A stretch of 64,000 nucleotides of DNA from Azolla caroliniana (lineage: Eukaryota; Plantae; Polypodiophyta): the NCBI GenBank assembly GCA_043228905.1, contig JBHGNT010000010.1:8618001-8682000 (forward strand), written 5' to 3'. Of this stretch, positions 21,654-26,728 are shown one piece after another. Position numbers and translations under genes: made by a program. The notes beneath the pieces were generated by a model. That model was not told the DNA's origin. It made no database searches and worked only from the letters and a program-made list of their open reading frames with translations. Every line of letters starts with the position of its first letter. Positions within the stretch are counted from its first letter, which is position 1.

Positions 21654-22347
21654 AAAGGTAACAAACACTTTCAAGAGACATATTTGAATACATTATTTGA
21701 CAAGAATTCTACCAATGAATTGAACATATTAACCTCATGTTAATGTCGACAAGGCTTGTTGTTTTTGTTGACAATATGGTCATGTTTAATGCTAATTCTA
21801 TCTTAAGCGCAATGTTTAAGGGGGGAGTCAATGAGACTAAATATTCAACGTTAATCGAATTAATCAACTACACAACCACAACGAAATATAATCCTAATCT
21901 CTACTTGATCGCGAAAATTTAATGCACACTCACAGGAGATTATTGTTTATTAACCCAAAAAAGGTGGAAATATACACACTCACAAGTTGGAGGGATATAT
22001 AAGTTGGGAGAGCGTGAGATTGAATATCTGAACATCATTATTCGATACACGTTCATGTTTAAGGCGTAGTGGATGAGACTAGATATCTAAACGTAAACTT
22101 GATCTCTGGTTGATCGTTCAAATTTAATCCACAATTATTGAGTAGTTGGTGGCATTATGGCCTAAGCAAGTAGTGTGAGCGAATAATCTTCGACGATTCA
22201 ATAATTAGGTAAAATAGTATGGTATCTAAAGAATAATTCAAAAGAGAATAGTGGAGTACGAGAAGAGAGAGAGAGAGAGAGAGGGAGGGAGAGAGAGGGA
22301 GAGAGAGAGAGAGAGAGAGAATTCAAATTCAATTTATGTAAGAAATA

Positions 22348-22400
22348 GGTCTTATGGCCAACATGTTTCGCTCTATATGATCTCATTCGTGCTAAAGACC
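22348..22400 (-). ncRNA. Degenerate hammerhead-like motif in the 3' pLTR
   Basis: Same fold as the other copies but core CGAATGA and a stem II mismatch. Confidence 0.55.
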
Positions 22401-22944
22401 AGAAAAAAAATGTTAGAGGCTTATATAGGGGAAGAGGAAAGAAGAGAGAATGGGGAGTGGTGGGGATGGAAGAGAGTGAGAGAGAGGGGGGGGGGGGGGG
22501 AGGGGTTGAATGTGTATAAAGAAGGATGTGGGAGTTAGGGGGATACTGAATGTAGAGAGGGATGGCTTAATGATTTTGATGGGAAGGGATGATTTTGGGT
22601 ATTTGTTATATTTAGTTATACTAGATAGATGCCAATGACAAGTGTGATGTTTTAATGGGGATTTTGGGAATCTAATATTTTTAGTTTTGACTACATAAGA
22701 ATAGAGTGATTTGGGGAGTTGTGGGGATGGAAAACAGAGAAAAGAGGAGAGAGGGGTTTTGATGTGTATAAAGGAGGATGTGGGAGTAAGGGAGGTAGTT
22801 AAAGTAGAGAGGGATAGCTTAAAGATTTTGATGGGAAGGGATGATTTTGGAGATTTGTTATATTTAGTTATAGTAGATAGATGCCAATGATAAGTGTGAC
22901 GTTTTAATGGGGATTTGGGGATCCAAGATATTTAGTTTTGACTA

Positions 22945-25925
22945 ACTAAGAATAGAGTGATTTTGACTTAGTCCAACATATAAAAGGTTTAGGGATGTCT
23001 TTTAGTTGGGGATCTAGCCTAAGGTCAACATGTAGGTCTTGTAAAAATGACTGGATGCCTAGTTTAGGGGAGTTTTACGAGTGCCTAAGCTTGAATATGG
23101 TAGGTGTAAGGGAAGATTTGTTTTTATGCTTATGGATGAGAGTATTCCTAAGGGAGAAAGGATGTTTTTTAAAAGACTTAAGGATAAAATGGGCCGGGTA
23201 ACCTCGGCTAATGAGCCTAAGGAAGAAACGCTTTTTCATTTCTAAGTATCCTATAGGTGTGCTTTCTCTAACTAGGTAGCGTTTTAATTCATTTGAAATA
23301 AGATTTTGTTTAACGTGTATGGGATGGTCTGAAGAGAAGGGAAGATATTGATAGGAATTTAATGGTTTTTGGAAACAATTGAAACAGAACTTAGAGTTCT
23401 CTAGATTAATCCAAATATCCAAGAAAGGGAGCCTAGTGGGGGACAATATGGATCGTAAGTTTAATGGAGTTATTGGTCATACGGCTATAGAAAGCAAGGT
23501 ATTCTAAGAGTTGGGGTTTCATACCAGTCCAAACCCTGAAGGCATCATCTATGTACCTAGTAAAATAGAAGAGATGGGGTGTGGTTTGGGAGTTTTCTAA
23601 GTGTGATTAGAAAAGGCGTCCATAGACAACTGAGAAGTTGTTGCCCATGGCTATTCCTTTGATTTGGTTGTATACTTGATTATTGAAGTTCAAGTAGTGA
23701 TACTCTAGGGTTAGAGTGCTAAGGGTATAGATAAGATTAGTCTTGGCTAAGGGAAAATGGGGGGAGATGATATGGCGAAGTGCTTCAAGTCCTAACTTAG
23801 GGGGGATGCTAGGATAAAGGGATTCTACATCAAAAGAGAAAATGAAACTATTAGGGGGGGGGGGGGGGGGTTAGTTGCTCTAGTTTTTGGATGAGGGAGT
23901 GTGAGTCTTTTAGGTATTCTTTTTGGAGTACTAGAATGGGTAAAAGTTGAAAATGTAGCCATTTCGAGGTTTGCTCGAATATCGAGTTATTAGAAGAACA
24001 GACGGGTCTAAATCCAATGGGTGTTTTATGGAGTTTAGGAAGGAAGTAAATATTAGATACTTGATATCCCTTTGGGGGTTTATAGAGTATGTAATTAGTT
24101 TCTATAAACGAAAATGTTCCCAGATTCTTTTGTACTATACTATTAAGGCGGTATAAGAGCTGTTCTAACGGAAAATGGGTTACTTTTCTATAGGTGGTGG
24201 TATCCGAGAGGTGGTTTATAGCTTTTTCATAGTGGGTATCTTTGTCTAGAACACATACTCCCATGTTCTTATCCGCCAGAAGAATGATGATCTGGTTGTT
24301 ATTCCTAAGGCTCTTAAGGGTTGTGCGAAGGTGGAGTGGTGTTGAGGCCGCGATCAGTTTCGGTATGTTGTTGAGTATTATGGGGTGGCTAACGTTTCGA
24401 TGATTTCCAACCATCATAGGGAGTACCATGCGTATGGTAGAGGAGTGGCGGCGGCGACTGCGGGAAGTTCTGTTGGCAGCTTTAATCTGTTTTCGAGTGT
24501 CAAAATTGTTGCCTTGATATGTGTGGCTGATGATAGTACAGTGGATGAGGCTAGGGGGTTGTGTTGGGAGCCAGAGGACTTGTATGAGCGGGGAGAAGAC
24601 CGGGGCTTGTCGTTGTTGCGAATGCTAGTGGTGGGCGGTGGTGGTGTGACTCATTGTTGGCAAAATGTGGGTTGTAGAAGAGAACTTGAGGCCCACCAAG
24701 GTTGGGATAAGGTTTAAATGCTTGTTTGACCTCATTAGTTGCAGTGTTACAAGTGAAAAGGATGTTAGATGCTCAGTAACGAGGACGTTGTGCTTGTTTG
24801 GAGTTACTATTGGAGCGGTGGTTTGGGTTAGGGTGAGAGTTAGGAAAAGGATTAGTGGTATTTTTGGATTTAATGTAAGTATTTAGGTTAGAATTAGGTT
24901 TTGGGTTAGGGTTTAGGGTAAAGTTTAGATTCATTTTGAGGTTGGGTGTGGGATTAGAATTTTTGTTTAGGTTAATAGTATGGGGGACAGACTTTTTAGT
25001 GTTATTTATTTCGGCTTCCACGGTGATGGACTGTCATAAAACATTTCATTATCATTTTCTTCTTCCCCTTCATACATTGTAATGTCTATATCTCTACTAT
25101 TAGGATTATCATATTTATTTTGTGCTCTTCTGTTATCTCTAAGTTCCGTGGCTGTTGCTTTAAGTGTATCATCAATGTTCTGATTTACAGCGAAATCATC
25201 ACACATTTTTAGGATTTCAGAGCCGAAATCTTGTAGTAATGTATTAATAGTTTCCTTAAAATTAGTAGGCTCAATATATGATGACACATCCCCAAAATGT
25301 TGGGGTTCTTGAAGAATGCTCGCAAAGTTATGTAGATCTGATCTAACGGTATTAGGGAAATTATCTAGGGTTTTAGTATATGAGTGCACTAGTAAGTCAA
25401 GATGTTTAATATAAGTACTTGTAAGATCTTTATTATATTGATTAGTGAGAGTTAGAAAGTCCTTATGCATGCTATTGTTAATTTCTTCATGATCTATCTT
25501 TAGCTTGGGGGATGAATTCTAAGACTTTGAGGGGTTAATTCATGAGAATATAAGTTCAACATCCTAATATGGGTATTCTTGGCTTGTTTTTTTCTTTTGA
25601 AGAGTTGTTTAAATTCTGCAAATATTCTAGTTTTATATTCTTCTAAGTATTTCGAGCAAAACGATATATTAGAAGATGATACCTTAGTATTGGAAACTTT
25701 AGTATCAGGAGTGGAGTTGATGAGTGAGGGAGAGAGAATATAATCTCGAGCGCACTTCTGTGGTCTTTTCTTTGAACTATTACGCTTGATAGGGGTCGGT
25801 GTAGCCGATGCCATCGCTGCAGACGTCAATATCGTGGGCTGAGGGAACTCTTCACTAGATGGTTGCCCGAACAATGACGATCCATATCCATTGTGGGTTC
25901 CTATCTCCGGTGAATGAACCTCCAT
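22945..25925 (-). pseudogene. PLE ORF (long N-terminal region plus RT), disrupted by stops and frameshifts
   Basis: ORF pieces 25500-25925, 25006-25470, 24773-25021, 23851-24429 and 23075-23446, plus manual translation of the RT core at ~23460-23850. Confidence 0.85.
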
Positions 25926-26122
25926 ATAATATGTCGAATCTTGAGTAGTTGTTGGCCTTGTGGCCTAAGCAAGCAGTGCGAGCGAATAACCTTCGGCGGT
26001 TGAATAATTAGATTAAATAGTATGATATCTAAAGAATAATTCAAAAGAGAATAGTGGAGTAGGAGAAGAGAGAGAGGGAGAGAGAGAGAGAGAGAATTCA
26101 AATTCAATTTATGTAAGAAATA

Positions 26123-26175
26123 GGTCTTATGGCAAACATGTTTCGCTCTATATGAGCTCATCCGTGTTAAAGACC
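26123..26175 (-). ncRNA. Minimal type I hammerhead-ribozyme-like motif in the 5' pLTR
   Basis: GGTCTT..CA-CGGATGA-GCTCatataGAGC-GAAA-CATG-TT-TG..TAAGACC; palindromic ACATGT stem III. Confidence 0.7.
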
Positions 26176-26496
26176 ATACAAAAATGTTAGAGGCTTATAT
26201 AGGGGAAGAGGAAAGAAGAGAGAATGGGGAGTGGTGGGGATGGAAGAGAGAGAGAAAGGGGGGGGGGGGGGGTTGAATGTGTAGAAAGAAGGATGTGGGA
26301 GTTATGGGGATAGTGAATGTAGAGAGGGATGGCGTAATGAGTTTGATGGGAAGGGATGATTTAGGGTATTTGTTATATTTAGTTATACTAGATAGATGCC
26401 AATGATAAGTGTGATGTTTTCATGGGGGTTTTGGGAATCTAATATGTTTAGTTTGACTAGATAAGAATAGAGTGATTTGGGGAGTTGTGGGGATGG

Positions 26497-26561
<65 letters not shown>

Positions 26562-26728
26562 GAGAGAGGGGTTTTGAATGTGTATAAAGGAGGATGTGGG
26601 AGTTAGGGAGGTAGTTAAAGTAGAGAGGGATAGCTTAATGATTTTGATGGGAAGGGATGATTCACTTTAATCCATAGCTATTCAGGAATTTTGTTTATGA
26701 ACCATAGAGATAGTATTTAATGGAAATG

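What the first reader, a model, noticed from the sequence alone, without database searches (positions are those of the whole stretch)
22140..26662. Endonuclease-less Penelope-like retroelement embedded in a tRNA array
Seen: a PLE-type RT whose frame ends ~70 codons after RGYP with no GIY-YIG motif there or in the long N-terminal region; direct pseudo-LTRs; antisense to the tRNAs. Its 3' end joins the spacer at TTTAATCCACAATTATT, ~45 bp upstream of the tRNA position, and ~19 nt of that target reappears at the other end (26664-26682, 4 mismatches). Established: EN-less PLEs (Athena, Coprina, Selaginella types) are described mainly at telomeres, priming on exposed chromosome ends. Inference: this lineage may instead use breaks, stalled forks or R-loops at Pol III gene arrays. 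Caveat: the 17444 copy is probably a duplication, so only one independent insertion is evident.
Basis: partly seen in the sequence, partly recalled or inferred. Interest (0 to 1): 0.85.

Follow-up and report, generated by a model that had tools for sequence, protein, structure and literature searches.

The report
Dispersed endonuclease-less Penelope family, not tRNA-targeted
This is a broken copy of a plant jumping gene that lacks a DNA-cutting enzyme; unlike a sister group that carries chromosome-tip repeats, its family has none and is joined to many unrelated sites, likely by priming on existing DNA breaks, so its place in a tRNA gene array is likely chance.

Summary
The element is real: a minus-strand Penelope-like element (22140-26662) with direct pseudo-LTRs, inserted 46-47 bp upstream of a tRNA-Phe position. 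It lacks an endonuclease: intact relatives (612-627 aa RT) end at the same place, and a GIY-YIG profile finds nothing in six frames. Intact units have a helical ORF1, a conserved -1 frameshift signal, a DKN-type RT and a hammerhead; in trees the RTs group with a Selaginella endonuclease-less RT (Coprina type). The window copy is dead (1.2-kb deletion, frameshifts, stops).

tRNA targeting is not supported. In four public runs the family's 3' ends run into about 17 different flanks, and only the window's own is this tRNA spacer; 0 of 49 related contigs hold a tRNA. The 17444 copy is a duplication. The 20-bp 'TSD' is no closer than random array units.

What remains of interest: this family and several others have no telomere-repeat tail and join non-telomeric DNA, while a sister clade keeps CCCTAAA tails. 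Non-telomeric endonuclease-less PLEs are known (Chara, Selaginella PLE-X). Two earlier notes of this scan describe related elements elsewhere in this genome.

The parts
22140..26662 (-). Decayed endonuclease-less Penelope-like element (partial tandem: 5'-truncated pLTR, body, 3' pLTR)
25943..26662 (-). 5' pseudo-LTR (3' end of an upstream unit, truncated at 26662; includes part of a ~260-bp subrepeat and (CT)n tracts)
   Evidence: 84% identical to 22138-22846; junction
22140..22903 (-). 3' UTR / 3' pseudo-LTR with a ~260-bp tandem subrepeat (22451-22712, 22712-22963)
24344..25925 (-). ORF1 remnant (ATG at 25925; conserved all-helical domain followed by an Asn/Pro-rich region); frameshifted and cut by the deletion
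   Evidence: 88-92% DNA identity to intact loci L001-L008; intact ORF1 ~750 aa; model
24343..24344 (-). Breakpoint of a ~1.2-kb internal deletion that removes the end of ORF1, the -1 frameshift signal and ~185 codons of ORF2
   Evidence: L001 1186/2389 and L006 1964/3170
22904..24342 (-). ORF2 remnant: DKN-type PLE reverse transcriptase plus thumb/linker, no endonuclease; two frameshifts and three premature stops
   Evidence: tblastn pieces 80-92% identical to P0001; PF00078
26123..26175 (-). Minimal type I hammerhead motif in the 5' pLTR, core mutated (CGGAUGA)
   Evidence: Rfam HH9 E=0.24, below gathering score; intact core in relatives
22348..22400 (-). Hammerhead motif in the 3' pLTR, core mutated (CGAAUGA)
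22167..22177 (-). Decayed copy of the conserved 3' motif CGCACTCCTTG, followed by a short hairpin, 27 nt before the 3' end (second copy at 25970-25980)
   Evidence: motif seen in tailed and tail-less families
22120..22139 (+). Target sequence at the 3' junction; repeated at 26663-26682 (possible 20-bp target duplication)
   Evidence: 5 of 20 mismatches
26663..26682 (+). Second copy of the target sequence, ending 46 bp before tRNA-Phe 26729-26801
17444..17997 (-). Duplicated 3' end of the same insertion (segmental duplication of 16794-17994 and 21490-22712)
   Evidence: flank 96.5% and pLTR end 96.7% identical
2841..27162 (+). Decaying tandem array of tRNA-Phe(GAA) units (~565-605 bp), resuming at 62110; also interrupted by other transposons

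Best explanation
This is a dead copy of a two-ORF, endonuclease-less Penelope-like retroelement of the Coprina (DKN) lineage whose family has no telomere-repeat tail and is joined to many unrelated non-telomeric sites, likely by priming reverse transcription on 3'-OH ends of existing chromosomal breaks, so that its position in the tRNA-Phe array is likely incidental. Shown: no GIY-YIG; ORF1 plus ORF2 in the -1 frame with a conserved A-AAA-AAC heptamer and 11-bp stem; a hammerhead and a conserved CGCACTCCTTG-hairpin near the 3' end; head-to-tail units; variable 3' ends (positions 355-372 of L006, two shorter) joined to unrelated flanks. Inferred: the RT is made as an ORF1-ORF2 fusion by -1 frameshifting. 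The RNA 3' end, held near the motif-hairpin, pairs through 0-2 nt (here AA/TT) with a free 3' end, here the + strand at 22139. cDNA ran through one unit into the next pLTR and was joined at 26662 to the other side of a break staggered by ~20 nt, or to a neighbouring array unit. Deletion, point decay and array duplication came later.
For: Intact RTs P0001-P0006 have no PF01541 and end where the window frame ends. A custom GIY-YIG HMM detects 36 EN+ proteins among those fetched but nothing in six frames of the window or 49 loci (best E=5.3). The ORF1 domain is predicted all-helical with no fold match at E<=0.001. IQ-TREE: the 17 host-family RTs form a 100/100 clade inside a 100/99 clade with the Selaginella EN- RT P0113; EN+ rows are separate. 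3' junctions: 17 listed rows, 23 contigs, about 17 distinct flanks, one of them the window's spacer, none telomeric. Three other flanks tested have 0 matches in the window, while the window's own gives 2. L035 and L008 also end in non-array DNA. No tRNA in 49 of 49 loci. CCCTAAA occurs after the hammerhead only in L026, L028-L030 and L034, which (with L032) form one clade (98/100). The array also holds a gypsy element, a 149-bp element and a 35-kb transposon nest.
Against: The priming mechanism itself is untested; a 20-nt duplication, if real, is also what a staggered endonuclease cut gives. Only 30 nt of each Logan flank is visible, 8 loose-end rows were not shown, several rows mix two contigs, and the chromosomal position of these flanks is unknown. 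Some junctions in metagenome contigs may be assembly chimeras (L001 at a CT tract; L002 and L035 5' ends at a repeated 18-mer). The tree does not resolve whether tail-less families derive from tailed ones (tail-less monophyly in 36% of bootstraps). The position 46-47 bp upstream of a tRNA resembles TRE5-A.
Confidence: 0.68

Rival explanations
1. The family prefers Pol III genes: it is tethered near TFIIIB, or uses breaks and R-loops at tRNA genes, and inserts ~47 bp upstream with its 5' end facing the tRNA.
For: The cut is 46-47 bp upstream of the tRNA, close to the ~50 bp of Dictyostelium TRE5-A (PMC3159450, start of abstract only). The 3' flanks read point away from a tRNA in this geometry, so tRNAs of other isotypes would not be seen there.
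Against: One independent event only. About 16 of 17 distinct 3' flanks are not this spacer. No element-to-spacer joint at another position was listed. 0 of 3 readable 5' flanks of the family (L002, L003, L035) and 0 of 49 loci contain a tRNA or A/B boxes. The array collects other transposons too.
Confidence: 0.07
2. The family is cut-dependent but borrows nicks in trans from the endonuclease of another retroelement (LINE or EN+ PLE), which would explain a ~20-bp target duplication.
For: A 20-nt target repeat flanks the copy; a staggered cut is the usual source of such repeats (established knowledge).
Against: The repeat is no closer than random array units. The visible 3' flanks share no obvious target motif (read by eye). 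No EN+ close relative was found: all near RTs lack EN, and the EN+ rows are distant. The host genome could not be searched for a donor.
Confidence: 0.15
3. Copies attach to chromosome ends or cap broken ends like classical Coprina elements, and are internalised later by fusion or rearrangement.
For: A sister clade has CCCTAAA tails; L030 runs into a pure (CCCTAAA)n tract and L032 starts with one. Head-to-tail chains occur (L007, L012, L016, L026).
Against: No telomeric repeat at either end of the window copy or at any listed 3' junction. The array resumes in register after the 5' end. At least 2.56 Mb lies beyond the window on that side.
Confidence: 0.1

Closest known systems
Coprina-type EN- PLEs (Selaginella moellendorffii Sm1/Sm2; fungal Coprina-1_Alen, PMC13159263 passages)
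   Same: No EN; DKN motif; RT plus thumb; coil/disordered ORF1 plus RT ORF2 as in Coprina-1_Alen; direct terminal repeats; hammerhead; nearest named relative is a Selaginella EN- RT (XP_024523476).
   Different: No reverse-complement telomeric tail and non-telomeric junctions in this family; conserved -1 frameshift signal between the ORFs. Whether XP_024523476 is Sm1/Sm2 was not tested.
Athena/Terminon elements of rotifers (PMC6431247 and PMC8557442 passages)
   Same: EN-less; coiled-coil ORF1 that can be joined by a frameshift; head-to-tail chains; 3' hammerhead.
   Different: Athena attaches to telomeric overhangs through (ACACCC)n next to the hammerhead; no Athena sequence was available for the tree.
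PLE-X families of Chara (genome-wide) and Selaginella (28S rDNA-targeted), Chlamys clade (PMC8557442 section 9)
   Same: EN-less plant PLEs with hammerheads that insert away from telomeres by an unknown route.
   Different: PLE-X has the CxC motif and belongs to the IFD-bearing Chlamys clade; neither feature is visible in these RTs (read by eye). No single target site here.
EN(-) PLEs of conifers (listed in PMC9033089; Lin et al. 2016 not held)
   Same: Land-plant EN- PLEs; Ginkgo proteins are among the top profile hits.
   Different: Their insertion sites and structure could not be read, so they may already include dispersed tail-less families.
tRNA-gene-targeting TRE5-A of Dictyostelium (PMC3159450, start of abstract)
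   Same: Position about 50 bp upstream of a tRNA gene.
   Different: TRE5-A is a non-LTR element with its own endonuclease (recalled) and a family-wide preference; here one event among about 17 sites.

Membership tests
Penelope-like elements | PLE-type RT with DK motif, RT core and RGYP thumb | tested here: met
   groups with PLE RTs including EN+ ones
Penelope-like elements | Pseudo-LTRs from partial tandem copies with 5' truncation | tested here: met
Penelope-like elements | Hammerhead motif in the pLTR | tested here: met
   intact CUGAUGA..GAAA core with palindromic stem III in relatives; mutated in the window; cleavage not assayed
EN+ PLEs (Penelope/Poseidon, Neptune, Nematis, Hydra) | C-terminal GIY-YIG endonuclease | tested here: not met
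   intact ORF2 ends ~100 aa from RGYP; custom HMM and motif scan negative
Naiad/Chlamys (including PLE-X) | N-terminal GIY-YIG and/or CxC motif and insertion in fingers | tested here: not met
   no GIY-like motif in ORF1 or ORF2; ORF1 domain all-helical; no CxC or long A-B insert seen. The HMM was built from C-terminal ENs and may miss a divergent Chlamys EN.
Coprina (EN- PLE clade) | No endonuclease, DKN motif, RT in the Coprina clade | tested here: met
   nested in a large EN-less DKN group next to a Selaginella EN- RT, 100/99; no named Coprina reference sequence was in the tree
Coprina (EN- PLE clade) | Reverse-complement telomeric repeats at the 3' end and attachment to chromosome ends | tested here: not met
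   0 CCCTAAA after the hammerhead in this family and no telomeric flank; met in the sister clade (L026, L028-L030, L034)
Athena | ORF1 joined to RT by a -1 frameshift | tested here: inconclusive
   heptamer at 14 of 14 sites found in 12 of 13 loci scanned; 11-bp stem conserved, 1 pair with compensatory change; frameshifting not measured
Athena | RT in the Athena clade | not tested
tRNA-gene-targeting retrotransposons (TRE5, Ty3 type) | Most copies at a fixed distance from tRNA genes | tested here: not met
   1 of about 17 distinct 3' flanks; 0 of 49 loci with a tRNA; other isotypes only partly testable

The most novel reading that the evidence does not exclude
A land-plant (likely fern) radiation of telomere-type Coprina elements has escaped the telomere: by dropping the CCCTAAA tail while keeping a conserved 3' RNA motif-hairpin, several families became genome-wide, endonuclease-free retrotransposons that copy themselves into internal DNA breaks, next to a telomere-tailed sister clade with a ~66-70% identical RT. 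This would be a natural pair for finding what lets a telomerase-like RT prime on internal breaks.
Probability: 0.45. Interest if true: 0.6.

Novelty: new variant of a known kind. Interest (0 to 1): 0.36.

Why it matters
How endonuclease-less PLEs obtain a 3'-OH away from telomeres is stated as open in PMC8557442 (section 9). Tailed and tail-less sister families with similar RTs in one plant lineage make that question testable by junction mapping and by swapping RNA 3' ends in vitro, and bear on how telomerase-like RTs heal breaks. The tRNA-array targeting that gave the first score is not supported, so this locus is an ordinary dead insertion.

Tried and rejected
No host genome is held, so no genome-wide junction map. 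Pfam did not detect GIY-YIG even in the EN+ control P0168, so Pfam negatives were not relied on; a custom HMM was used. PDB sequence search with the RT profile: 0 hits. ESM Atlas: no usable hit for ORF1. Foldseek of the ORF1 model: only weak helical matches. Viral-contig scan for the 3' end: 0. Rfam at gathering score on 20 of 49 loci: 0. No RNA holder was listed. My hand-written stem was out of register and is discarded; one search gives the structure. Summed contig depth was not used as copy number. The X2 contig at the window junction has only 24 nt on the spacer side and does not count as bridging; the X6 contig (22085-22203) does. Earlier-finding searches by sequence and by words found nothing. 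[quoted passage not shown] 2016 and Arkhipova et al. 2017 were not held, and the supplements of PMC8557442 were not opened; any of these may bear on novelty.
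Full report
Observation. The minus strand of 22140-26662 holds a Penelope-like RT in three pieces and direct pseudo-LTRs (25941-26662 vs 22138-22846, 84%). It lies in a tandem array of tRNA-Phe(GAA) units (11 called by ARAGORN, 33 tRNA-like hits including half copies). The 3' junction is TTATT|GAGTAG. Public contigs show the empty site continuing CGAGAATTTT, and one contig of run X6 bridges the filled junction. 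The cut is 47 bp before the tRNA in 18 of the 20 units where it could be placed (21 examined) and 46 bp on the right flank. Twenty bases of target recur at 26663-26682 with 5 mismatches (4 in 19). Random unit pairs differ by 3.0 in 20 on average, so this may be an old target duplication or a join to another unit. The 17444 copy shares 96.5% flank identity with the 22140 site against about 86% for other units, so it is a duplication.

What the intact element is. A protein search gave six intact relatives of 612-627 aa at 69-88% identity over the searched region, none with PF01541. They end at LVKTK plus 0-14 residues, like the window frame. The window frame has decay stops 43 and 86 codons after RGYP and its natural end 100 residues from it, not ~70. 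Forty-nine metagenome loci show the full unit: an ORF1 of about 750 aa, then ORF2 in the -1 frame. An A-AAA-AAC heptamer stands at 14 sites found in 12 of 13 loci scanned, followed by a conserved 11-bp stem. Frameshifting is inferred. The window copy lacks about 1.2 kb across this junction. The pLTR holds a minimal hammerhead with a palindromic stem III, intact in relatives and mutated in all three window copies. A motif CGCACTCCTTG with a short hairpin is conserved near the 3' end in tailed and tail-less families. Units form head-to-tail chains (L007, L012, L016, L026).

No endonuclease. Pfam missed GIY-YIG in an EN+ control, so I built a profile from 29 EN-bearing proteins. It detected 36 fetched proteins, 15 of them among the 149 profile hits examined, and nothing in six frames of the window or the 49 loci (best E=5.3). 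No GIY-like motif was found in ORF1 (21 frames) or ORF2 (12 frames). The conserved ORF1 domain is predicted all-helical (mean pLDDT 67) with no PDB match at E<=0.001. The Pro-rich rest of ORF1 was not folded.

Placement. FastTree on 160 of 167 rows and IQ-TREE on a 33-row subset (near-duplicates and distant rows left out) put the window RT in a 100/100 clade of 17 host-family rows. That clade lies inside a 100/99 clade with the Selaginella moellendorffii protein P0113 (XP_024523476), within a large EN-less DKN group; EN+ rows are separate. This fits the Coprina lineage, though no named Coprina reference was available. Families with CCCTAAA tails (L026, L029, L032, L034) form one clade (98/100); L030 of that group runs into a telomeric tract. 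The order of branching between tailed and tail-less families is unresolved. The label 'fern' comes from earlier notes of this scan; my own data show only a land-plant host.

Test of tRNA targeting. Laying four runs on the family's 3' end and ORF1 start (L006:270-440; 357 equals window 22140) listed 17 rows of 3' loose ends at 333-372, from 23 contigs; 8 further loose-end rows were not shown. After merging flanks shared between runs I count about 17 distinct sites; rows with two contigs and about 0.67 agreement were counted as two. One is the window's spacer (X6, and one of two contigs in X2). None is telomeric. I tested three of the other single-contig flanks against the window with 3 mismatches: 0 matches each, against 2 for the window's own; the rest were compared by eye. 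L035 and L008 also end in unrelated DNA. ARAGORN found no tRNA in 49 of 49 loci, blastn found no array DNA in them, and no A/B boxes lie in six family flanks. The limit: in the window's geometry a tRNA lies beyond the 5' end, and only three 5' flanks were readable, two of them possibly chimeric. The array is decaying (60 of 132 changes in 21 tRNA copies are C>T or G>A) and holds several other transposons, so one PLE insertion needs no targeting.

Not telomeric either. Telomeric Coprina copies point their ORFs towards the centromere (PMC13159263, passages), so a chromosome end would lie on that side.

Mechanism. Most likely the RT primes on a free 3'-OH at a break, with little pairing (AA/TT here), which accounts for variable 3' ends and unrelated flanks (0.68). 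Rivals are nicks borrowed in trans (0.15), internalised end-capping (0.10) and Pol III targeting (0.07). None was tested at the bench.

Known context. PMC8557442 (passages and section 9) describes EN- PLEs as generally terminal, but also EN- PLE-X families that are genome-wide in Chara and 28S-targeted in Selaginella, and calls the route unknown. PMC9033089 (passages) lists EN(-) PLEs in Selaginella and conifers. PMC6431247 (passages) describes telomeric tails next to the hammerhead in Terminons. PMC12477314, PMC10088271 and PMC13578239 (passages) added nothing on PLEs at tRNA genes. PMC3159450 was seen only as the start of an abstract. Searches found no report of tail-less dispersed Coprina families or tRNA-targeted PLEs, but three key papers were not held. 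Two earlier notes on this genome already describe related Coprina-type elements.

Verdict. The family is a variant of a known kind: Coprina-lineage by RT, without the telomeric tail. Interest 0.36.

Noticed in passing
window 6000-12197 and 16299-16774: A gypsy element (DUF4100, RNase H, integrase) inserted inside a tRNA-Phe copy after nucleotide 52, with ACGT repeated on both sides; its left junction recurs at 16299, probably by array duplication (4965-6482 vs 15271-16779, 90.8%).
   Followed up: partly
window 15122-15270: A 149-bp TG..CA element with an ATAT repeat at its ends interrupts the array; a 78% similar copy lies at 43738-43911.
   Followed up: no
window 2841-27162 and 62110-64000: Large single-isotype tRNA-Phe(GAA) array with two unit types (~565 and ~605 bp, the longer with a degenerate second tRNA-like copy 198 bp upstream), decaying by C>T/G>A changes, split by a 35-kb transposon nest, with an inverted block at 63628-64000.
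   Followed up: partly
L003:3676-3775 and homologous sites in 11 other loci: Conserved -1 frameshift-like signal (A-AAA-AAC, 9-nt spacer, 11-bp stem) between ORF1 and the RT ORF; deleted in the window copy.
   Followed up: partly
L006:320-346 and homologous sites: CGCACTCCTTG followed by a short hairpin is conserved in tailed and tail-less families just before the 3' ends and the ORF1 start codon; candidate RT-binding signal.
   Followed up: partly
L016, L026: Chains join RT copies of different subfamilies head to tail (real mixed chains or assembly chimeras).
   Followed up: no
L021:6356-7057: A sister-family copy lies next to a homeodomain gene (PF00046, E=1e-10), a sign of insertion in gene-bearing DNA.
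   Followed up: no
runs X1, X2, X6: Several 3' flanks are shared between runs of two coded organisms (A and C), including the window's junction, so these insertions likely predate their split.
   Followed up: no
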